NCBI GenBank assembly: GCA_000002445.1
Contig: CH464491.1
Location: 448,001 to 512,000, forward strand
DNA from: Trypanosoma brucei
Taxonomy: Eukaryota
Direction: 5' to 3'
DNA length: 64,000 nt
The notes under the pieces are model-generated. The model made no database searches and had not been told where the DNA came from. It was given only the letters and a program-made list of their open reading frames with translations. How positions within the stretch are numbered: position 1 is the stretch's first letter; the number at the start of each line of letters is the position of its first letter. Made by a program: the position numbers and the translations under genes. Below, piece after piece: positions 40,996 through 53,235 of the stretch.

Positions 40996-42984
40996 TCAGC
41001 AAGGGCCCTTCGCATCTCGGGCCAGCTGCTTGTGCAGTATTTCATAATCCATTCTGTCCTTTGCTGAAACAGATGGCTTGACTTTAGACATGCTGACTTC
41101 GAAGTCCTCCATGGTAACGGAGGGCAGCTGCGCATTCGCCACTGCCTCACCACTGGCGTCTCGTTCCATTTGCTCCAGCATCTCCTCGGTGGCGCCACGG
41201 TAGATATTCTTTAGCGCATGCAAGGAGGCCTCCCGCATAAGTGCGGCCAAGTCGGCACCACTAAACCCCTGGAGGCGCTCATCGCGGGCAATACTCGGGA
41301 GATCCACCGACGCGTCAATTGGATAACGGCGTGCATGTGTTTCTAGAATAGAGGCACGCTGCTCCACGGAGGGAAGTGGAACATACAGCATTTTGTCCAG
41401 GCGCCCAGGACGAAGCATAGCCGGATCAATCATATCTGGACGGTTAGTAGCCCCAATGACATACACACTTTCACGTCCCTCCACACCATCCATTTCTGTC
41501 AGCAACTGGTTTACAACGCGCTCACTGCTTGGGTTTGCCCGATCGGAGCCGCGCCGTGGAGCGAGGGCATCCAGCTCATCAAAGAAGAGAACACAAGGAG
41601 CACTTGCACGACCACGAGCAAAAACCATGCGCACACTCCGCTCACTCTCACCAACAAATTTATTCAGCAACTCAGGTCCTTTAATGGATATAAAATTGGC
41701 GCCTGACTGGTTGGCTATAGCCTTTGCCACCAGTGTTTTGCCACAACCTGGCGGGCCGTAGAGCAGCACACCAACTGGATGATCCAACCCAAACCGTCGG
41801 TGAAGCTTTGGCGACCGAATTGGCTGGAGAATGCTGGTGATAAGCTCTTCGCGAACATCCTCAAGAGCACCAATATCATCCCATGTTACGTTGGGGATCG
41901 TCGTGAAGCCCTCCCTCATTGCGCTTGGCTGCACGCGCTTGACGGCCTCCTTCATATTGTCACGTGTCACGACAAAAGACACGAGTTCCTCGGCGTTGGG
42001 ATCGTCCAGTTTATTCTTTTCCTCCAGTTCGTTGTGCTTCTGCCGGATTGCAAGAATGCATGCCTCTTTGACCAGCAGGTGAAGATCTGCACCAACGTAA
42101 CCGGGTGTCATGTTCGCCAGTTCGAAAAAGTCCACGTCCTCTGCCAAATGAAGCTTCTGACAAATTATTTTTAAGATACTGTGCCGTTCGTCGATGGTGG
42201 GGATGCCAAGAGAGATTTCACGATCGAAACGTCCCGCACGGCGCAAGGCGGTATCAAGTGCCTCTGGACGATTCGTAGCCCCCATTACACAAACAACTTT
42301 GTTATGTTGCCGCCACGCCTGGGCAACCTGATCCATGCATGTCAGAAGTTGTCCGACGATGCGGCTTTCCATACCCCGCTGCGCTTGATCGCGACGACCT
42401 GCAATGGTGTCAACCTCATCAATGAATACAATGCTTGGAGCCGCGCTTATGGCATCTAGAAAAAGGTTACGCAGTTTGGCCTCGCTATCACCGCTGATGC
42501 CAGAGACAATTTCGGGAGCGGACACGAAAAAGAGTGGGACTTGCAGGGACCCTGAAATGGCATGCACAAGCTTCGTTTTCCCGCACCCCGGTGGTCCATG
42601 GAGCAGCACACCGCAGGGCGGATCGGCGCCTAAGCGGCTGAATAAATGGGGAGAGCGGATGGGCAATTCAATTAGTTCTTTAATTATTGGAATTTCTCTT
42701 GCAAGCCCGCCCATGTCATCGAGGGTAATACCCGGGATGACGCCGAGCCTTTCGGGTGTGTCTTCCTCACCTCCATCATCGTCTTGTTTGGTTTCCGCAC
42801 GTTTCCGTTTCCTGGAACCCTCCAATCCGTTATCGTCACCACCATTTCTTCGACTACGTTCTGTGAAGTTGCTCTTTTCCCCGCGATCCCTTTCATGGAT
42901 GCCATTTCCCCGTTGAGAAGAGCCATGGAAATACCGGTCGCTTTGCCGTCTCTTCTGCCTGAGCCGCCGCATCTGGTCAGACAT
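40996..42984 (-). CDS. NVL/Rix7-like (nuclear VCP-like) type-II AAA+ ATPase with two AAA domains and a basic N-terminal NLS-like region. The start is taken at [14 protein letters not shown]. The ORF track extends to 43146 through a hydrophobic, low-complexity run.
   Basis: D1: [13 protein letters not shown]...IVFIDEVD...GATNRP...[9 protein letters not shown]. D2: [44 protein letters not shown]...[15 protein letters not shown]...[21 protein letters not shown]. This is a CDC48/NVL family signature, and the absence of a CDC48 N-domain favours NVL. Confidence 0.85.
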   Translation of the reverse strand: [662 protein letters not shown]

Positions 42985-44110
42985 ATCCCACAGCGGGAAA
43001 TATTTTCTAACAGTCACCGTAACAGTGACCAGCGGTAAATTAAAAATAAGTAAATAAATGTGATATACGGTAAAGGCATATAACCACAACAAAGAGGTAG
43101 ATGAAAGGCCCTCCATCGCGGCGATGGAGGGGTTCGCCAGACGCAAAAATGGGTAAAACAGCTGCGCGACTGGGAATCTCTTCCACTCGAAGTAATAAGT
43201 TATAACTGAAGAAAAATATTACGACTGGGGGCACAAACGTTTCACAAGATTGCTCTCAGCAATAGTGGTGTGTGCATGAAAACGTGCACATGTAAAAAGA
43301 AAAAAGAGTTGGGTTACAAACCCTCGCTTACAACGTAAGGAGTGTCTTGGCCCGAAACGATGTCTTGGTTGGAAAGGTACAACCCAATTTTCTTTTCCTT
43401 TTTTTTTTCCGATCGCTGAGAAAACTAACACCTCTTACAGTCCACCTCGTGACTTAACCAAACAGACGAAAAAAAAAAGAAAAATGTCGTAACCCCTAGA
43501 ACACTGGGGGCAACGGAATCATCGCTATTCAAAACTTGAAGCGCACAAAACTGCAGAAAGTAAAGAAAACAGCCGAAAGGCATGTGTACTACACTCCCGT
43601 AAGAAAGACCTCCATTACAGGAGTAGGAAATTTTAAAACAGTGATAACACAAATGTGCGAGGAGCAATAACCCGCACCTCACCTTCCCTTTTGCACATGC
43701 ACCCGAGAAATGAGGAGCCAGACATACTACACAGCTATGAAGCGGTGACATGAACTCGGAAGTTAAAAGATTTCCCTACCCGTGTCCTCCACACCAAAAA
43801 ATGGAGGAAAGAAAAAAAAACACGACGAACACGTATCAGCACTTCTCCTACGCTTACTTCTCCTCCTCTTCACAGTCCACTGGTCGTTAGTCGCCTCATC
43901 GGTATCCTTTCCCTGTATCATACAAATTTAACTTCCATCACTACAACAGAAAAAATGATGAGAAGCAAAACCCTAAAAAAAAAAAAACAGACATGTCACT
44001 GTCCGTTTGCGCTTCCCTTGTTGTACTGTTTTTAATAACAGTGGTTTTAACAATGGTATGAAATGATTCAACACCAGCGCTCTCTCATCACTCCTTTGAG
44101 AACCAGAAGA

Positions 44111-45424
44111 CTACCGCCACTCCACGTCTTTAAGGCTCTTTCCTTCCATCAGCAAGTCCCACAGTGGCGACATTTCACGCAACCTTTCCACAGTGCGGGC
44201 ACACTCCTCAACCGTAACATCCACCTCTCGCTCAGTAGTGAAGCGACCGATACCAAATCGAATGGAGGTGTGTGCATTCTCAGCATCAATACCGAGTGCA
44301 CGCAAAACATAACTTGGCTCTAGAGAGGCGCTTGTGCATGCACTTCCACTCGAGACCGCTACCTTCTTCATGCCCATTAGTAAACTCTCACCTTCCACAC
44401 AGGCAAAGCTAATGTTAAGGTTTCCGTGAAATCGGCGCTCAACATCACCATTGAGTGTGATGTGTGTTAAGCGCTTCTGCAAACCCTCCCATAATCGCTT
44501 ACTAAGTTGGGCGATGCGCTCTGAATCACGCTTCATCTCTACCTTTGCTAGCTCACACGCTGCACCCAATCCCACTGCAAGTGGTGTGGCTATAGTGCCG
44601 CTACGCACACCACGCTCCTGTCCACCACCACTCACTGGTGATCGCACACGGACGCGCGGACGGCGTCGCATGTAGAGGGCACCGCAGCCCTTCGGTCCGT
44701 ATATTTTGTGCGAGGATACTGACATGAGGTCAATGTTATCCCGATCCACATCAATATCCAACTTTCCCACCGCCTGCGCGGCGTCAGTATGAAAGAGGAC
44801 CTTCTTTTTCCTGCATATCTTCCCGATTTCGCCAATGGGTTGAATCACACCAATTTCATTGTTCACATACATGCAAGAAACGAGCGCTGTTGTGGGACGG
44901 ATAGCTTCCTCAAGTTTCTGTAGGTTCACAATCCCATTTTTTTCAACGGGAAGGTACGTTACCTCGAAACCCTCCATTTCCAAGTAGCGGCAGGAGTCCA
45001 AAACACACTTGTGTTCTGTTTGAAGGGTTATGAGGTGGTTTTTCTTTTCTTTGTTGTAGTTGGCTACACCTTTTATGGCAATATTGTTGGACTCCGTTGC
45101 GCCGCTAGTAAAAAAAACACCCTTGGGACTCGCTCGAATTAAATCTGCCACTTGCGTCCGCGCCTTCTCAACGGCCTCCTCAGCAGTCCAACCATAACTG
45201 TGTGTACGGCTGTGTGGGTTGCCATACATTTCAGTCATGTAAGGCAGCATCTTATCGAGTACCCGTGGATCTAACGGAGTTGTTGACTGCAGATCCAAAT
45301 ATAGCGGTCGTGGATCCCTTTTAAAAGGCCTTCCAGCGGAGCCTCCAACCGACGAGACTCCCTGACTGATGGCTGATGCGGAGCCACAAGCCGCGCAAAG
45401 AAGTACGCGAACACCACTAAACAT
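44111..45424 (-). CDS. NFS1: Cysteine desulfurase (NFS1/IscS type), mitochondrial.
   Basis: YLDLQSTTPLDPRVLDKMLPYM...NPHSRTHSYGW, the PLP-lysine region SSHKIYGPKGCGALY, and the active-site loop SGGGQERGVRSGT. Confidence 0.9.
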   Translation of the reverse strand: MFSGVRVLLCAACGSASAISQGVSSVGGSAGRPFKRDPRPLYLDLQSTTPLDPRVLDKMLPYMTEMYGNPHSRTHSYGWTAEEAVEKARTQVADLIRASPKGVFFTSGATESNNIAIKGVANYNKEKKNHLITLQTEHKCVLDSCRYLEMEGFEVTYLPVEKNGIVNLQKLEEAIRPTTALVSCMYVNNEIGVIQPIGEIGKICRKKKVLFHTDAAQAVGKLDIDVDRDNIDLMSVSSHKIYGPKGCGALYMRRRPRVRVRSPVSGGGQERGVRSGTIATPLAVGLGAACELAKVEMKRDSERIAQLSKRLWEGLQKRLTHITLNGDVERRFHGNLNISFACVEGESLLMGMKKVAVSSGSACTSASLEPSYVLRALGIDAENAHTSIRFGIGRFTTEREVDVTVEECARTVERLREMSPLWDLLMEGKSLKDVEWR

Positions 45425-45987: not shown

Positions 45988-48654
45988 TCAGTACATTTCC
46001 TCCCCGTGAATGGAACCATCGGCGTTCAAAACACCATCGAAAGCGTCTGATATGCCCATTTCCGATGCAACGTCCCTAATCGCGGCAGCCAACTCCGCCT
46101 GTTGACTCTCCGTGAGAACCGGGGGTGAGTGATGATCTCCCCCACTTCGCTGCGGTCCTCCTTTGGTGAAAAGCTCGTTAAGTGAAGAATACAAAGAGGT
46201 TTCCAAACTCTCAGCCTCACCCGTTGAGGTGGTTTCGGCAGTGCGATGATGCTCTTCATGCGCCCTCCACAAGGCAAGATCAGTGATGCGTAGGAATTGA
46301 CGATAAGTTAGTGATGTGGGGTACGCACGAACCACTTCATTCGGCAGTTTAGCCGTCTGAGGAAGGATACCATAGTGATGAAGCAACTTAAGGACGCCCT
46401 CGCGGCGAATAGGCTGAAGGTTGAGCCTTACATCGTACTCCACTGAACCCAGAGCACCCTGAAGAACCTCTTCCTCAGCTGTAGTAATGATCAACAATCG
46501 CTTCCTTCGAGGCTGAGACACATCCCACTCACTGTGAGGGAACAACCCGGAACTCGACACCGACTTGAACTCGTTAATAGCAGACCTCAATGCATCCGCT
46601 GCACCCGAGTCACCACTGCGAACGTACCGTTCAACATTGTCAACAACTAAACAGTAATCCCCTTTAAAGGCACCGGCGTCACGGAGTGCATCGATGACCT
46701 CCTGGATGTCCCTCGCGGCTCGCCCGCTGAGCTCGCGCCCTGTGAGAAACTTCGTCACGCTAAAGCGAATGCTGCTCACCACATTTCTTGCAAACACAGT
46801 CTTTCCTGAGCCGCTGGAGCCATGAATAACAACTACAGCCGCATTTGTAATTTGGCTGTGCTGAATACTACGCATCAACCGCCGAACTACACCCATCCCG
46901 CGAGATATCGTTCCGTCAAAATCCACAAGCTTATCAACAGCGTTATCCAGTCCCTTACCGTCGCCGGCGAGATCTTGACCACCGTTTACCTGCGCCTTTG
47001 AGTCCCATACATCCCTCAACGCAAGTTGAAAGTCGCTATTGGTAACTTTAAAATGCTCAGTCGCTGCGCCAGAGAGTTCATCCTCAATACCAATATCCCC
47101 GGTGGGGATGCTTGTGTTGAGAGAACTATCGCGGAACCGTAACAATGCGTGACTGACCGCCGCACGAACCGTGCCAGCAACATCGGCACCAGAAAATCCA
47201 CCTGTTCGCTCTGCCAGTATATCCAAGCTGACATCTTCTGCAAGAAAATCCTTATCCCGTAGTTCCCGTGTGTGGATAAAAAACATCTCTCTTCGACCCT
47301 TAACGTCAGGTAGGGGAACCTCAATGACAACTTCAAACCGACCTGGGCGGAGAAGTGCACGGTCAATAGCATGTAACCTGTTCGTCAATCCAATAATAAG
47401 TATATTCCTTGCTTTATTCACGCCGTCCATGATGGTTAGAAATTGGTTAGTTAGTCCATCATACACAGCTTTCGTGGAGCTTTCCTCCCCCAAATCTGCA
47501 CGCCGTTTAAAGAGTGCATCGAGTTCATCCATAATGACAATGTGCAAGCTCTTGCTGTTTGCAGTTTCTTCATCAGCACCAGAAGCATGTCGCGTTCCCC
47601 CGTGCTCATCCTCATCATCATCATCGCCCCACATGTTGTTAGCGTCAAATAGCCTCCGAAGGTTCTTTTCGGAGTCACCAACGTACTTGGAAATAATGTC
47701 AGCCGCGTTGACAATAGTTACCCTCGTCCCTTTACCTTCCAGCTTGGCAATCATACGAGCAATAAGAGTCTTACCGGTTCCCGGCGGCCCATGGAGGAGT
47801 ACTCCACGTACAGGCGGAATATTAAGTGATTCCACCACCCCACGGAGTTGCCGCGTCCTACTCAAGAAAACGCGACGGAAAAGCTCATGTAGTTGCTCAC
47901 TTAATCCTCCAATACCAAGAGAAACCCACTCATCATTCATTGCAGAGTGTCGGACTCTACGGAACATATATTCTAAGGGGTCTTCGGCATCCTCCTCTTC
48001 ATCCTCCTCACCGCCCGAGTGCGATCCATTGCCATACGGCGTGAGGTCCAACTCCACTGCACGGGGGACGGAGGCAAGCGTAACAATTGTAGTCTTGTTA
48101 GAGTTGTCACTCGTTACAGTTTGAAGCAATTTCAGGTTCATCCAAGTGCTCCGTGTGGTCAGCCGTTCCAACCACAGCGGTTTATGCCTCAAACTATCCA
48201 TGGGATTAAGAAGGGTACACGACAAGATCTGCCGCGGGAACAGACTAGAGGGCCTCACATGAAGACACGGCATGGAAATTAAATCAAGATCCTCCTCACC
48301 TCCATGATGTGGTATTGGTGTGTGTTCCTCCAGAACTATGCTTAAGTTCCCCAGCTGTGGGAAACCGCGCCCCCGAACGGTGAGTTGTACCGGATGATAT
48401 GAATTCAAGTCAGAGAAGCACGAAATCGTCTGGCGACCCCTTTCCGTTAGCACAGGCCTAGTGCAGCCGGTAATCCACAATATCTCTAATCTTTGATAAT
48501 TGCTATATTTTGCAGGACCGCCGGGATGATATGAAGCCGCACCCAGATTAACGCTGTAGAGACACGCCACGCACGCGCAAAGAAGAAACAGTGATGAAAG
48601 CGGATTTAGCGTGCGAAACGCTTGCCTTTTGCTAACTGTGGTCTTGACTATCAT
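45988..48654 (-). CDS. Divergent NSF-like AAA ATPase (888 aa). D1 is conserved and D2 degenerate, with an unusual N-terminal hydrophobic segment and no recognisable NSF-N domain.
   Basis: [22 protein letters not shown]...[23 protein letters not shown] matches NSF [22 protein letters not shown]...[40 protein letters not shown]...[26 protein letters not shown] is D1. The D2-like part is [18 protein letters not shown]...[11 protein letters not shown]. The N-terminus is [17 protein letters not shown]. Confidence 0.75.
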   Translation of the reverse strand: [888 protein letters not shown]

Positions 48655-49016: not shown

Positions 49017-49583
49017 TTATTTATTTTTTCTCTTTTTTGGCGAGTTGTCTCCCGAACCAGGGGAGCCTGCCTGGGAAAGGGATTGTAAACATCGGATCGC
49101 AGTGAAAAATGGCGCAATTATCCACACCGAGCTCGGCAAAAGAACCATCAGTAACTTATCCAAATAGCCGATATGCCTCGTGTATTCCCCACCCTCCACG
49201 AAATCCATCACGAAGTACAGCAGAGTTTTACTGAAAGTCATAACGCTAACGACCGCTGCCAACTTGATAGCCGACTTCCAGTACCCGCTAAAGGAAAGAA
49301 GGAGGGCAAGTAAGCCAAGAGTGACTTCCAACAAATTCATCCAACTCTGCGCCACAACGAAGGCATCTTCATTCGGGGCGTAACGTCGGTCGTAAGTGGC
49401 GTAAACCGTCCACGGCTGAAATAAAACTAATTCGCCTAAAGGGTGTGGTGTATCAGGTGTTTTAGGGCGGTTAAGGACAAAAACAGCATCAAGCAACACA
49501 ACAGGTGCTGTCAAAAGCAACCAAGCCGTTGCGACCGTAGGGAGGCGCGGTTTCTCCATCGTCGTCATCTCCCCCTCGACCAA
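49017..49583 (-). CDS. Four-TM membrane protein, possibly EXPERA domain (TMEM97/sigma-2 or EBP-like).
   Basis: 188-aa ORF with four hydrophobic segments. Spacing and length are reminiscent of TMEM97. No search was run. Confidence 0.4.
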   Translation of the reverse strand: MVEGEMTTMEKPRLPTVATAWLLLTAPVVLLDAVFVLNRPKTPDTPHPLGELVLFQPWTVYATYDRRYAPNEDAFVVAQSWMNLLEVTLGLLALLLSFSGYWKSAIKLAAVVSVMTFSKTLLYFVMDFVEGGEYTRHIGYLDKLLMVLLPSSVWIIAPFFTAIRCLQSLSQAGSPGSGDNSPKKRKNK

Positions 49584-50137
49584 TTCCTCACAACTTACCT
49601 AATACAAACTGTTACAATGACCAAAGACTACTGCAACCGGGAGTAACCTGAAAAGGAAAGTGACTAGCAGAATGAGTAAACGGCATATTAAAAAAGAAAA
49701 AATAGCCGAGAGACTAGAAACGAATTCACCGGGAGGCAGAAGTCCAGTATGAACACTTTTATTGTAGAATGGTCAGGTATGTGAATGGGCCCCAGAAGGC
49801 TGCATTTTCCCCCATAATTTTTTCAAAGGGAATGAAAAAAAATGCGCAACTGGGCGGGGGTTCCCGCATCCCGCTTCCGCTGCATTACCTCCATTTCACA
49901 TTATCTCTAAAATCTCTCAAGTTACCTCCATCTGAATGCCTCAACTCGCGTCTTGTTAACGTCGTTATCTTGCCCTCCTCTTCACCTCCAAGTTAGCACA
50001 CGAAATTTTCTAAACAACCCATGTATTTATAATGGAGTAGCCCCTTGCAGCGGCTAACGAATTGTAGCCTTCCTCCAACAACGAAAGCGCCTCGCGTCCC
50101 TCCGCCACCACCGAGCCACCTCGGTTCATTACTACCG

Positions 50138-50700
50138 TTAGTTATGTTCATCATCATCATCGTCGTCGTCATCATCATCATCATCGTCATCGTCATCCCC
50201 AGTGTCGTCATCAGCGTAGTTTCCTGTGTCGTCATCATCATCCCCAGTGTCGTCGCTGCTAAGGGTGGTGTGATCATCATCACTCTCACGGTCATCCCCC
50301 CTACGACCGTACATGGTAGAGCTCTCGCTGTCGCATTCATCTTCGCTGTCCTCACCCTCGCCATCTTTATCGCTGTTATCATCTTCATCGTTGTCATCAT
50401 CGACAGGATCGTGATCGTATATGGAAACCTCGTCACTGCTGTCGTCGCCATCGCTGCTGTCTTCTTCACTGCCGTCACTGTTATCATTACTGTCACCGTC
50501 ACTGTCACCGTCACTCTCGTCATCAACAGGATCATCATCACGCGTAGAGGGTTCGTCGTCACTGCTGCCATCATCGTCCGAATCGTCGGTTTCGCTATCG
50601 TCACTGTAGGACGAGCTGTAAGACCCACTGCCATCATCAGATGAGGCAGCCGAAGAGCTTTCGTCGTCATCTTTCGCATGTCCTGAGGTTGCTTCGAAAG
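50138..50700. repeat. GAY/GAR codon-repeat low-complexity tract encoding the poly-Asp/Glu/Ser tail.
   Basis: Read directly. It generates long spurious ORFs in several frames on both strands. Confidence 0.85.
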
Positions 50701-51850
50701 CGTCTGCTCTGGTTTCGACCTCCATATCGCTGCTCGACCTACCAGAATTCATTCTGAAAGTACTGGCCGCGGCGGAGGCAACCGCGGCGTGAGCGATAGC
50801 CGAGCCCACGGCGCTTGCCCCGGCGGTAGATCCTACAAATCGTTTAGGCGGGGTACGAGTGAGGGATGAAGCACGAACTGGAGCAGCGACCGTACGTTCT
50901 CCCCTCACCATCAACATTTTTGACACCCCTTCCCCACGCGCTTTCCTTGAGAAAGAGTCACCACAACTATCCTCCACGGCAACCGTCTCATCCACCTCCT
51001 CCATACTTCTATAGCGGTGCTCCTTTTTAGTGGTCACCTTTTTCTTTTGTTGAAGGGCATATATAGCCATCTCCCGCTTCACAAGTAGCTCATTCGTTAT
51101 ACGGGCATGGTATTGATGCTGGATACCGAACATATCCCCTAATACCGCGTCCAGGTATTTCATCACAAAAACGAGATTTTCCTCCTCGATGGTGGCGTTG
51201 AAACTTCGCCGATCATCCAAGTTGTACTTCGTCGCTGCCCCTCCCGCGTTCGCAGCATCATCATCCTCATCCTCATCGTCCAGTAGATTGGATCCATCCT
51301 CTGTGTTCTTCGGGCCTGCGGTCACCACTTTTGCAGTTACTTCACCTGCAAGCGCAAAAGCCGATGGTAGTGCAGGGAAGGACTTGCCTTCACGTGCACC
51401 AAAGCCTCCACCCTCCCCTCCTTGCCATCTAGGTATTGGCTTCAAATGTAGCGAAGAGTGTTGTTTTTCCATCGACACGTGCCGCATCTTACCCTCGAAC
51501 GCAGCCAGGAGTGATGCAACATCATAAGGCCGGAGAAAAATACGACCAAAAAAGTAGTCCCCCGTGATATCAGTACTCACTTTACCTCCATTTGGGGCTG
51601 TCCTGTCTTCAGAAATCATCTTCGCTGCCGCCTCCGGTGCCATTCCCACATGACTGTCGGGAGACTGCACACTTAGTACAAGGTGCCGCTGACGGTTGCT
51701 CTTCCACCGCCACAGCAACACAGCCGGGTACTCGACCTCTCCCTTCGCAATGCTTACGGGAGTGCGCAGATCCCGCACAAAAACACTGCGACCACCCGCC
51801 TTGAGAAAGACGGCAGAAGCAAAAGTTACGGCGGAGATGCGGCGCCACAT
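50138..51850 (-). CDS. Hypothetical 570-aa protein with an extreme acidic low-complexity C-terminal tail of about 180 aa (D/E/S-rich, ending DDDDDDDDDDDDDDDEHN).
   Basis: The 3' 560 nt (50138-50700) is GAT/GAC/GAA-rich on the coding strand. The ORF-track calls 49993-50679(-) and 50045-50644(+) are frame artefacts of this repeat. Confidence 0.55.
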   Translation of the reverse strand: MWRRISAVTFASAVFLKAGGRSVFVRDLRTPVSIAKGEVEYPAVLLWRWKSNRQRHLVLSVQSPDSHVGMAPEAAAKMISEDRTAPNGGKVSTDITGDYFFGRIFLRPYDVASLLAAFEGKMRHVSMEKQHSSLHLKPIPRWQGGEGGGFGAREGKSFPALPSAFALAGEVTAKVVTAGPKNTEDGSNLLDDEDEDDDAANAGGAATKYNLDDRRSFNATIEEENLVFVMKYLDAVLGDMFGIQHQYHARITNELLVKREMAIYALQQKKKVTTKKEHRYRSMEEVDETVAVEDSCGDSFSRKARGEGVSKMLMVRGERTVAAPVRASSLTRTPPKRFVGSTAGASAVGSAIAHAAVASAAASTFRMNSGRSSSDMEVETRADAFEATSGHAKDDDESSSAASSDDGSGSYSSSYSDDSETDDSDDDGSSDDEPSTRDDDPVDDESDGDSDGDSNDNSDGSEEDSSDGDDSSDEVSIYDHDPVDDDNDEDDNSDKDGEGEDSEDECDSESSTMYGRRGDDRESDDDHTTLSSDDTGDDDDDTGNYADDDTGDDDDDDDDDDDDDDDDEHN

Positions 51851-52614: not shown

Positions 52615-53235
52615 TTAATGGTATCGCGATGTGTCACTTACAGATCGCTTCCGCCTTGCGCCTCCCTCCGCTGAAGATGTCGCTGCAATTTTCTCCCCTC
52701 CCTCTGCGGCCCGCGTGGCATAGTGCTGACGAAACCCGAAGCTCTCGTCCAATGCACTCTCCAAAAAGTGCTCCAACGTCACGGCGAAATGGTTATCAAA
52801 TTTAACAGACCAGTCCTCCATCCGCTGCGAGGCCACGCGATGCACCTTCCCGTGAAGGTGATACCCCTGTGCAGACTTCTCAAAATCGAGCGTATACGCC
52901 TTTGTTTCCATGCGATGACGTGGCACCCGCTCCTTACATACGCCGACAAGATACGCAAGGTCTACATGACGCAGCCTTACGGAAATGCGACGGTCCGCAT
53001 CAAACTGAGGACTTAAATCATTTGGATCCACTTTGCGTGGGCCCAGTTGTGGGTACTGAGAAATGAGAAGCAGCTTCCCATCAACGGCAACACGCGTCAT
53101 TGTTCCGAGCGCAGGGTCATCCCGCACGTCGTGAATTTCAAATTTAGGCAGTGACTGAACGCCGGAAAAAGTAGAAGCGCCACGGGACCAGGCTGAGCGC
53201 ATGGCCGGTCCACGCAGGCATGCGAGTCGAATCAT
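52615..53235 (-). CDS. Hypothetical 206-aa protein with a mitochondrial-presequence-like N-terminus (MIRLACLRGPAMRSAWSRGAS).
   Basis: ORF on the coding strand. No domain recognised. Confidence 0.45.
   Translation of the reverse strand: MIRLACLRGPAMRSAWSRGASTFSGVQSLPKFEIHDVRDDPALGTMTRVAVDGKLLLISQYPQLGPRKVDPNDLSPQFDADRRISVRLRHVDLAYLVGVCKERVPRHRMETKAYTLDFEKSAQGYHLHGKVHRVASQRMEDWSVKFDNHFAVTLEHFLESALDESFGFRQHYATRAAEGGEKIAATSSAEGGARRKRSVSDTSRYH

What the first reader, a model, noticed from the sequence alone, without database searches (positions are those of the whole stretch)
45988..48654. NSF-paralogue AAA ATPase with a hydrophobic N-terminus instead of an NSF-N domain
D1 is unmistakably NSF-like, including the GIGGL...FRR(V/A)F motif preceding Walker A. 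D2 is degenerate in the way NSF D2 is. However, the first ~270 aa do not resemble the NSF N-domain that binds alpha-SNAP. They start with a signal-anchor-like segment and contain an acidic [10 protein letters not shown] stretch. A membrane-anchored NSF-like unfoldase would be unusual and may act on something other than SNARE complexes. An NVL-like AAA gene (40996-42984) lies 3 kb away, and the two should not be conflated.
Basis: partly seen in the sequence, partly recalled or inferred. Interest (0 to 1): 0.5.

Follow-up and report, generated by a model that had tools for sequence, protein, structure and literature searches.

The report
NSF-derived AAA ATPase, probably ER-luminal
This Trypanosoma brucei gene, annotated as a second "Sec18/NSF", is a real NSF paralogue that has replaced the SNAP-binding N-domain with a signal peptide plus a four-cysteine IPT/TIG-type domain, which most likely places an NSF-type protein-unfolding motor inside the endoplasmic reticulum rather than in the cytosol.

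Summary
Window 45988-48654 (- strand) encodes an 888-aa protein. Its D1 and D2 AAA domains are of the NSF/Sec18 type, and its first ~245 aa have no relation to NSF-N.

The window is T. brucei chromosome 11 and the gene is Tb927.11.1680. The canonical NSF is a different gene, Tb927.1.1560.

The hydrophobic N-terminus has the architecture of a secretory signal peptide or N-in signal anchor in 31 of 31 family members examined with an intact N-terminus. It is followed by an IPT/TIG-fold domain with four invariant cysteines. Cysteine is almost absent from the AAA modules. Two relatives carry lectin-type N-modules. Published spatial proteomics places Tb927.11.1680 in the ER.

The best reading is an ER-luminal, NSF-derived hexameric unfoldase that acts on luminal clients, not SNAREs. 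Luminal orientation is inferred, not shown; I put it at about 0.7.

The family is small. It occurs in kinetoplastids and in kinetoplastid-like environmental contigs, with a possible outlier in a sponge assembly. I found no description of it in the searched literature.

The parts
45988..48654 (-). Complete ORF of 888 aa plus stop; T. brucei Tb927.11.1680, annotated 'vesicular-fusion protein SEC18, putative'
   Evidence: ORF listing. The 99%-identical P0001 and 44-49%-identical Trypanosoma orthologues. Synteny with Nfs. The N-terminus of the neighbouring Nfs ORF matches the peptide string given for Tb927.11.1670.
48535..48654 (-). N-terminal signal peptide or signal anchor (aa 1-40). The n-region is 18 aa with +4 charge, the h-region is aa 19-35 ([17 protein letters not shown]), and candidate -3/-1 sites are LGA|AS and AAS|YH.
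   Evidence: This is the only hydrophobic segment in the protein. TriTrypDB-derived fields in Table S3 give '1 TM, SignalP N/A'.
48040..48492 (-). IPT/TIG-fold N-domain (aa 55-205) with four invariant cysteines: C64, C79, C130, C146
47920..48039 (-). Acidic, disordered linker (aa 206-245) that includes [10 protein letters not shown] (aa 216-225)
   Evidence: pLDDT below 50 at aa 209-223 and 233-239. The region is variable in alignment A1.
47095..47919 (-). D1 AAA domain of NSF type (aa 246-520). Motifs: GIGGL...FRRVF, Walker A 289-296, pore loop KYVG 323-326, Walker B DE 376-377, sensor-1 N425, RPGRFE 436-441, and a variable Asp-rich insert at aa 340-367.
   Evidence: Pfam AAA 2.5e-38 and AAA_lid_3. 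Sec18 212 bits and NSF 206 bits in one stretch. Invariant motifs. D1 tree.
46225..46914 (-). D2 AAA-like domain (aa 581-810). Walker A is GSSGSGKT (612-619). Walker B is LVVDNVE (669-675) with no catalytic Glu.
   Evidence: Best PDB hits are Sec18 D2 (E 1.6e-6) and NSF D2. The Walker A Lys is lost in distant members. The top 50 Foldseek hits to the full-length model are all Sec18/NSF chains.
45991..46224 (-). C-terminal helical tail (aa 811-888) ending in an acidic-hydrophobic-aromatic motif: GEEMY here, and [DE]E[LVI]xW in most kinetoplastid orthologues
   Evidence: Function unknown.

Best explanation
The gene encodes an NSF-derived type II AAA+ ATPase of the endoplasmic reticulum.

Proposed targeting. 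An N-terminal signal peptide (or N-in signal anchor) sends the polypeptide through the Sec translocon. The whole protein then lies in the ER lumen: a disulfide-stabilised IPT/TIG-type N-domain, an acidic linker, a catalytically competent NSF-type D1 ring and a degenerate D2 ring.

Proposed mechanism, by analogy with NSF. D2 would hold a hexamer together. D1 would hydrolyse ATP and pull substrate through its Tyr/Phe pore loops. The N-domain would take the place of the SNAP-binding NSF-N domain as the client or adaptor receptor. Some relatives carry lectin modules at this position. The clients would therefore be luminal proteins or complexes, possibly glycoproteins in folding, disaggregation or ERAD, and not cytosolic SNARE bundles.

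Status of each step:
- Shown here: NSF-type D1/D2, a non-NSF IPT-like N-domain, signal-peptide-like architecture, the Cys pattern, and conservation of the family.
- Shown by others: ER localisation of Tb927.11.1680, and a separate canonical NSF.
- Inferred: luminal orientation, hexamer formation, threading, and the identity of the clients.
For: NSF relationship:
- Per-domain scores favour Sec18/NSF.
- D1 of the distant member P0046 finds 'vesicle-fusing ATPase' proteins at 45-55% identity, against 37-43% for CDC48.
- The NSF-type clan has 300/300 bootstrap support. Canonical NSF is monophyletic in 300/300 and the family in 191/300.
- The top 50 Foldseek PDB hits to the full-length model are all Sec18/NSF chains.

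Catalytic competence:
- Walker A, Walker B DE and the RPGRFE arginines are invariant across 22 members. The pore-loop aromatic is Tyr or Phe in all 22.

Not the canonical NSF:
- T. brucei NSF is Tb927.1.1560 and has a severe RNAi phenotype (PMC2443814).
- The N-domain has no similarity to NSF-N and has an IPT/TIG fold.

Luminal side:
- Signal-peptide architecture in 31/31 members examined with intact N-termini, and no second hydrophobic segment in most members.
- N-flank charge is greater than or equal to C-flank charge in most members.
- Four invariant Cys in the N-domain.
- Cys makes up 0.03% of family D1 against 0.5% of NSF D1, and there are only 0-5 Cys in the ~640-aa D1-D2-tail region.
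- The nearest non-family matches to the N-domain profile are signal-peptide-bearing, Cys-rich TIG-repeat proteins with a C-terminal TM segment.
- Relative P0128 carries a C-type lectin domain, E 5.7e-19.
- Relative P0144 has a weak match to the MRH domains of ER lectin ERLEC1, E 0.0021.
- The family member on contig L007 also starts with a signal peptide.

ER location:
- hyperLOPIT assigns Tb927.11.1680 to the ER in both life stages.
- TrypTag shows a reticulated pattern with both N- and C-terminal tags.
- The protein is enriched by the luminal baits BiP-TurboID and BiPN-TurboID in procyclic forms, log2 difference 6.4 and 6.3 (bioRxiv 10.64898/2026.04.03.716285, Table S3).

Identity of the gene:
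- The Nfs ORF next door begins MFSGVRVLLCAACGSASA, the same string listed for Tb927.11.1670.
- Gene order is conserved in T. grayi and in a distant contig.
Against: - No signal-peptide or topology predictor was available, so the signal-peptide call rests on rule-of-thumb features.
- TriTrypDB fields list '1 TM, SignalP N/A' for the T. brucei protein. It may therefore be an uncleaved anchor.
- TurboID enrichment is weak evidence. The mitochondrial matrix enzyme Nfs is also 'enriched' in that table, and enrichment of the target is not significant in bloodstream forms.
- There is no KDEL/MDDL-type C-terminus.
- N-glycosylation sequons are neither enriched nor conserved.
- The four Cys could in principle bind a metal rather than form disulfides.
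- The MRH match in P0144 is weak and Pfam finds nothing there. The D1 of P0144 is not resolved as a family member.
- Two gene models (T. grayi, T. vivax) lack the hydrophobic N-terminus, probably because they are truncated.
- Function has not been tested.
Confidence: 0.6

Rival explanations
1. The protein is a signal-anchored ER membrane protein whose IPT domain and AAA rings face the cytosol. It would act as a membrane-tethered NSF-like unfoldase on cytosolic or membrane-protein substrates.
For: - '1 TM, no SignalP peptide' is listed for the T. brucei protein.
- The T. brucei h-region is 17 aa with a long n-region.
- IPT/TIG domains also occur in cytosolic and nuclear proteins such as NF-kB, EBF and CAMTA.
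- There is no KDEL-like signal.
- ER association alone (LOPIT, TrypTag) fits this model equally well.
Against: - A cytosol-facing C-terminus would require translocating an 18-aa, +4-charged N-terminus. This runs against the positive-inside rule.
- Most orthologues have h-regions of 10-16 aa at the extreme N-terminus, followed by -3/-1 sites. This is typical of cleaved signal peptides and too short for a stable TM helix.
- Invariant Cys quartet, and near-absence of Cys from the AAA modules.
- Surface-type IPT relatives and lectin-bearing relatives.
Confidence: 0.2
2. This is the database annotation. The protein is a functional Sec18/NSF that disassembles SNARE complexes in the cytosol and simply has a divergent N-domain.
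For: - NSF-type D1 and D2.
- Source names such as 'vesicular-fusion protein SEC18, putative' and computed GO terms.
Against: - A separate canonical NSF exists, Tb927.1.1560.
- There is no NSF-N by sequence, profile or fold.
- The N-terminus is signal-peptide-like.
- LOPIT assigns it to the ER, not to the cytosol or Golgi.
- Canonical NSF D1 sequences are monophyletic to the exclusion of this family in 300/300 bootstraps.
Confidence: 0.05
3. The protein is targeted to mitochondria or another organelle. The N-terminus would be a presequence plus sorting signal, and the cysteines would be oxidised in the intermembrane space.
For: - One source names the Leptomonas orthologue 'putative mitochondrial'.
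- Disulfides can also form in the intermembrane space.
Against: - LOPIT assigns Tb927.11.1680 to the ER in both life stages, and TrypTag shows a reticulated pattern.
- The N-termini are short and hydrophobic and lack amphipathic, Arg-rich presequences in most members.
Confidence: 0.03

Closest known systems
NSF / Sec18 (vesicle-fusing ATPase)
   Same: - Two-ring D1-D2 architecture.
- The GIGGL...FRRAF pre-Walker-A motif, the YVG pore loop and the RPGR arginines.
- D2 has a Walker A motif but no catalytic Glu.
- NSF/Sec18 gives the best sequence and structure matches, and the two share a D1 clan.
   Different: - It lacks the NSF-N double-psi-barrel plus alpha/beta-roll domain that binds SNAPs.
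- It has a signal peptide and a four-Cys IPT/TIG-type domain instead.
- It is assigned to the ER and is probably luminal.
- It has almost no Cys.
- D2 loses its Walker A Lys in distant members.
- It co-exists with a canonical NSF.
Torsins (metazoan ER-luminal AAA+ proteins)
   Same: - A signal sequence followed by an AAA+ module in the ER and nuclear-envelope lumen.
- They are the only luminal AAA+ precedent I know of (from my own knowledge).
   Different: - From my own knowledge, torsins have a single AAA+ domain of a different clade, lack an arginine finger, need the LAP1/LULL1 activators, and have not been shown to thread substrate.
- Here the Pfam Torsin model scores below its cut-off, 21.7 bits against 27.
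- This protein has two rings and intact pore loops and arginines.
Cdc48/p97/VAT and NVL (other type II classical AAA unfoldases)
   Same: - Classical-clade AAA domains.
- A hexameric threading mechanism is expected.
- An NVL-like gene lies 3 kb away.
   Different: - Per-domain similarity is clearly lower than to NSF: 128 and 99 bits against 206-212 bits.
- Both domains are active in those proteins.
- They carry Cdc48-N type N-domains.
- They are cytosolic or nuclear.
IPT/TIG domains of plexins, Met/RON and protist surface TIG-repeat proteins
   Same: - Shared 'SGC...C...(L/I)TIxGxxF' sequence signature with signal-peptide-bearing, TM-anchored, Cys-rich repeat proteins.
   Different: - Here it is a single domain with an inserted helical element.
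- It is fused to an AAA+ motor.
- The Pfam TIG model is not reached at its gathering score.

Membership tests
NSF/Sec18 | D1 AAA domain belongs to the NSF clade | tested here: met
   Sec18 212 bits and NSF 206 bits in one stretch, against 128 and 99 bits for VAT D1 and D2. NSF-type clan 300/300 against CDC48. All of the top 50 Foldseek hits are Sec18/NSF. The family is a separate branch from canonical NSF, which is itself monophyletic in 300/300.
NSF/Sec18 | D2 domain that can bind nucleotide but is not catalytic, serving as the oligomerisation ring | tested here: met
   Walker A GSSGSGKT and Walker B LVVDNVE without Glu. Best hits are Sec18 D2 (E 1.6e-6) and NSF D2. Oligomerisation itself was not tested. 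Distant members lack the Walker A Lys.
NSF/Sec18 | NSF-N domain (double-psi beta-barrel plus alpha/beta roll) that binds SNAPs | tested here: not met
   [not shown]
NSF/Sec18 | Cytosolic protein that disassembles SNARE complexes via SNAPs | not testable with these tools
   The signal-peptide-like N-terminus and the LOPIT ER assignment argue against it.
Classical AAA+ unfoldase | Walker A, Walker B DE, pore-loop aromatic, sensor-1 and arginine fingers in at least one ring | tested here: met
   In D1: [8 protein letters not shown], DE376-377, KYVG, N425 and R436/R439. The Walker and arginine motifs are invariant across 22 members, and the pore-loop aromatic is Tyr or Phe throughout.
IPT/TIG (E-set Ig-like) domain | IPT/TIG beta-sandwich fold and sequence profile | tested here: inconclusive
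   [not shown]
Secretory-pathway luminal protein | Cleavable signal peptide or N-in signal anchor, with an extracytoplasmic disulfide pattern | tested here: inconclusive
   The n/h/c architecture and -3/-1 sites are present in 31/31 members. There are four invariant Cys, and Cys is depleted elsewhere. However, no SignalP or DeepTMHMM run was possible, the TriTrypDB field says SignalP N/A and 1 TM, and no topology experiment exists.
Torsin | Torsin-type single AAA+ domain | tested here: not met
   Pfam Torsin scores 21.7 bits, below the 27-bit cut-off, on the P-loop only. This protein has two NSF-type domains.

The most novel reading that the evidence does not exclude
Kinetoplastids, and a few other eukaryotes, possess a substrate-threading, double-ring AAA+ unfoldase inside the ER lumen. 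It evolved from NSF by replacing the SNAP-binding N-domain with IPT- or lectin-type client receptors. It would serve as a luminal disaggregase or segregase for (glyco)protein quality control or ERAD. No such activity is known in the ER of yeast or mammals, where luminal unfolding is attributed to Hsp70-family chaperones and PDI-family enzymes and the pulling is done by cytosolic Cdc48.
Probability: 0.35. Interest if true: 0.85.

Novelty: new variant of a known kind. Interest (0 to 1): 0.65.

Why it matters
The ER lumen is generally thought to lack classical AAA+ unfoldases; torsins are an atypical exception. A luminal NSF-type motor with intact pore loops would change how luminal protein disaggregation, complex disassembly or ERAD substrate preparation can be achieved. 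This matters particularly in trypanosomes, which lack a canonical unfolded-protein response (stated in the preprint) and push very large amounts of surface glycoprotein through the ER.

It also corrects an annotation. Tb927.11.1680 and its orthologues carry 'Sec18 / vesicular-fusion ATPase' names and SNARE-disassembly GO terms, which are probably wrong. As far as found here the protein is restricted to kinetoplastids and a few other eukaryotes, has no human orthologue of this architecture, and is experimentally tractable.

Tried and rejected
- PDB sequence searches with the N-terminal 240 aa (single sequence) and with the aa 50-246 N-domain profile found nothing meaningful.
- N-glycosylation sequons are not enriched and no position is conserved, so they give no information on topology.
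- No KDEL/MDDL-like C-terminal retrieval signal was found.
- I first treated TurboID enrichment as evidence for luminal exposure. I downgraded it after seeing mitochondrial Nfs equally 'enriched' in the same table.
- Pfam does not support an MRH domain in P0144. Only a weak ERLEC1 hit exists, so this stays a lead.
- The first D1 tree suggested that NSF was paraphyletic. That was caused by labelling P0144 as NSF. With P0144 set apart, canonical NSF is monophyletic in 300/300.
- A first tree script timed out.
- Literature searches for 'vesicular-fusion ATPase-like', old-style Tb11.55 gene IDs and NSF-paralogue terms found no description of this family.
- I could not retrieve a kinetoplastid canonical NSF sequence with the tools. 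The existence of Tb927.1.1560 as NSF rests on the literature.
- Canonical NSF was not found in the stored, truncated part of Table S3, which is uninformative.
Full report
**What is there.** Window 45988-48654 (- strand) is an uninterrupted 888-aa ORF that starts with ATG. An in-frame stop lies 27 codons upstream with no intervening ATG. A polypyrimidine tract followed by AG, typical of a trans-splice acceptor, precedes the ATG. All long ORFs in the window are on the minus strand, which is the polycistronic layout of a trypanosomatid.

**Identity of the locus.**
- The downstream neighbour (44111-45424) is a class-V aminotransferase, the cysteine desulfurase Nfs. Its first 18 residues, MFSGVRVLLCAACGSASA, are exactly the peptide string listed for Tb927.11.1670 in Table S3 of bioRxiv 10.64898/2026.04.03.716285.
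- The same gene order (a 177-190-aa ORF, then the AAA gene, then Nfs) occurs in T. grayi. In a distant kinetoplastid-like contig the order also continues into the two-domain AAA gene.
- The window is therefore T. brucei chromosome 11 and the target is Tb927.11.1680, annotated 'vesicular-fusion protein SEC18, putative'.

**The AAA modules are NSF-type.**
- Pfam finds AAA (E 2.5e-38, aa 285-448) and AAA_lid_3, plus a second weak P-loop near aa 603-630.
- Against PDB sequences, D1 alone aligns in one stretch to Sec18 (212 bits) and NSF (206 bits). VAT and p97 reach higher totals only because both of their domains match D1; VAT D1 and D2 score 128 and 99 bits individually.
- D2 alone finds Sec18 D2 (E 1.6e-6) and NSF D2 as its best hits.
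- D1 of a distant family member retrieves 'vesicle-fusing ATPase' proteins at 45-55% identity, against 37-43% for CDC48.
- In a neighbour-joining tree of D1-type domains, family plus NSF form one clan in 300/300 bootstraps against CDC48. Canonical NSF is monophyletic in 300/300, and the family in 191/300.
- A full-length AlphaFold model (pLDDT 72) has Sec18/NSF chains as all of its top 50 Foldseek PDB matches.
- In D1 the Walker A, Walker B DE and RPGRFE arginines are invariant in 22 members, and the pore-loop aromatic is Tyr or Phe throughout.
- D2 keeps GSSGSGKT but has D-N in place of the Walker B D-E, like NSF D2. In distant members even the Walker A Lys is lost.

**The N-terminal region is not NSF-N.**
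- There is no PDB sequence hit with the single sequence or with the family profile.
- hhalign of the family N-domain profile against a 12-sequence NSF-N profile gives probability 0.07%.
- An AlphaFold model of aa 50-246 (pLDDT 83.4, pTM 0.76) is a beta-sandwich.
- Pfam TIG is hit weakly in 4 of 20 members.
- A profile of the domain was searched against 1.84 billion representative proteins. Full-length matches came only from about 20 AAA proteins of this same architecture. Partial matches came from genuine TIG-repeat proteins.
- Several of those TIG-repeat proteins look like surface proteins, with a signal peptide, 3-5% Cys and a C-terminal TM segment.

**It is a paralogue, not the NSF.** Koumandou et al. 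(PMC2443814) identify T. brucei NSF as Tb927.1.1560 on chromosome 1, with a severe RNAi phenotype. Neither half is met.

**Which side of the membrane.**
- Across 31 family members with intact N-termini, the segment lies at the extreme N-terminus. It has an n-region of 2-18 aa carrying 0 to +4 charge, an uncharged run of 10-22 aa, and small residues at -3/-1 immediately after. This is signal-peptide architecture.
- Most members have no second hydrophobic segment, so the IPT domain and both AAA rings share one compartment.
- Flanking charges favour N-in/C-out.
- The N-domain has four invariant cysteines: C64, C79, C130 and C146.
- The roughly 640-aa D1-D2-tail region has only 0-5 Cys. Family D1 is 0.03% Cys, against 0.5% in NSF D1.
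- A split gene model on an 828-kb contig also begins with a signal peptide, followed by a coiled coil and the same four-Cys domain.
- One relative (P0128) has a C-type lectin domain, E 5.7e-19, directly before a family-type D1.
- Another relative (P0144, Geodia barretti assembly) has a weak match to both MRH domains of the ER lectin ERLEC1, E 0.0021, upstream of a four-Cys IPT-like domain.
- Together these features point to the luminal side.

**Experimental context from Table S3 of the preprint.**
- hyperLOPIT classifies Tb927.11.1680 as endoplasmic reticulum in both bloodstream and procyclic forms.
- TrypTag shows 'cytoplasm[reticulated]' with both N- and C-terminal tags.
- TriTrypDB fields give 1 TM and no SignalP peptide.
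- The protein is significantly enriched by luminal BiP-TurboID and BiPN-TurboID in procyclic forms (log2 6.4 and 6.3) but not in bloodstream forms.
- I give the TurboID result little weight, because the mitochondrial matrix enzyme Nfs is also scored as enriched in the same table.
- ER association is therefore well supported. Luminal orientation remains an inference, which I put at about 0.7.

**Mechanism proposed.** The steps below are inferred by analogy with NSF.
1. The protein is translocated co-translationally.
2. The IPT domain is oxidised to two disulfides.
3. D2 drives hexamerisation.
4. D1 hydrolyses ATP and threads clients, which are captured by the IPT domain or, in relatives, by lectin modules.

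Clients would be luminal proteins or complexes. The candidate role is disaggregation, complex disassembly or preparation of ERAD substrates. The acidic linker (aa 206-245) and the Asp-rich insert in D1 (aa 340-367) are disordered and variable. The conserved C-terminal motif, [DE]E[LVI]xW (GEEMY here), is unexplained.

**Distribution and novelty.**
- Members occur in Trypanosoma, the Leishmaniinae and Angomonas.
- They also occur in environmental and Logan contigs whose genes are intronless and mostly on one strand, some with conserved synteny. This is kinetoplastid-like.
- P0144 may extend NSF-type proteins with this N-domain beyond Euglenozoa, but its D1 position is unresolved.
- I found no paper describing the family. 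The only mention of Tb927.11.1680 is as 'Sec18' in a figure legend and table.
- It is best classed as a new variant of a known kind: an NSF-family AAA+ with a new N-domain and, probably, a new compartment.

Noticed in passing
window 40996-43146 (- strand): A 716-aa protein with two active-looking AAA domains and a Vps4_C-like end. Its best PDB hit is human NVL at 588.8 bits. It lies beside the target gene here, and a similar two-domain AAA gene lies beside the target's homologues in two distant kinetoplastid-like contigs (L003, L006).
   Followed up: partly
window 44111-45424 (- strand): Cysteine desulfurase Nfs, Tb927.11.1670. Its N-terminal 18 aa match the published peptide string, which identifies the window as T. 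brucei chromosome 11. This mitochondrial protein is scored as 'enriched' by ER-luminal TurboID baits in the preprint's Table S3, which is a warning about that dataset's specificity.
   Followed up: yes
window 52615-53235 (- strand): A 206-aa ORF with the Pfam MRP domain (mitochondrial RNA-binding protein), E 7.2e-32. From memory, its position fits MRP1 (Tb927.11.1710). The same gene is present in the syntenic T. grayi locus.
   Followed up: no
window 49017-49583 (- strand): A 188-aa hydrophobic ORF with no Pfam hit. An ORF of similar size (174-190 aa) lies immediately upstream of the target gene's homologues in T. grayi and in contigs L003, L004 and L006.
   Followed up: no
window 47572-47655 (aa 334-361 of the target): An Asp/Glu-rich, low-confidence insertion between Walker A and Walker B of D1. 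It varies greatly in length among Trypanosoma species (about 90 aa in T. theileri) and is absent from distant family members.
   Followed up: partly
window 45991-46008 (C-terminus of the target) and homologues: A conserved C-terminal acidic-hydrophobic-aromatic motif...[DE]E[LVI]xW in most kinetoplastid members, GEEMY here, and ...LDL or ...LFL in distant members. It is not a KDEL/MDDL-type signal. Its function is unknown.
   Followed up: partly
L008 (P0128) and P0144: NSF-type D1 domains fused to other extracytoplasmic-type modules. P0128 has a C-type lectin domain, PF00059, E 5.7e-19. P0144, from a Geodia barretti assembly, has a weak MRH-like match to ERLEC1 (E 0.0021) plus a four-Cys IPT-like domain. 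Both are partial sequences of uncertain source organism.
   Followed up: partly
L007 4285-7845: On an 828-kb ENA contig, three adjacent called genes (564, 312 and 252 aa) look like one family member split by the gene caller. Together they read: signal peptide, long E/Q/R-rich coiled coil, four-Cys IPT-like domain, D1 and D2.
   Followed up: partly
window 49993-50679 and 50045-50644: Low-complexity ORFs rich in T, M and V that overlap the 570-aa gene at 50138-51850 in other frames or on the other strand. They are probably artefacts of a repetitive coding region.
   Followed up: no
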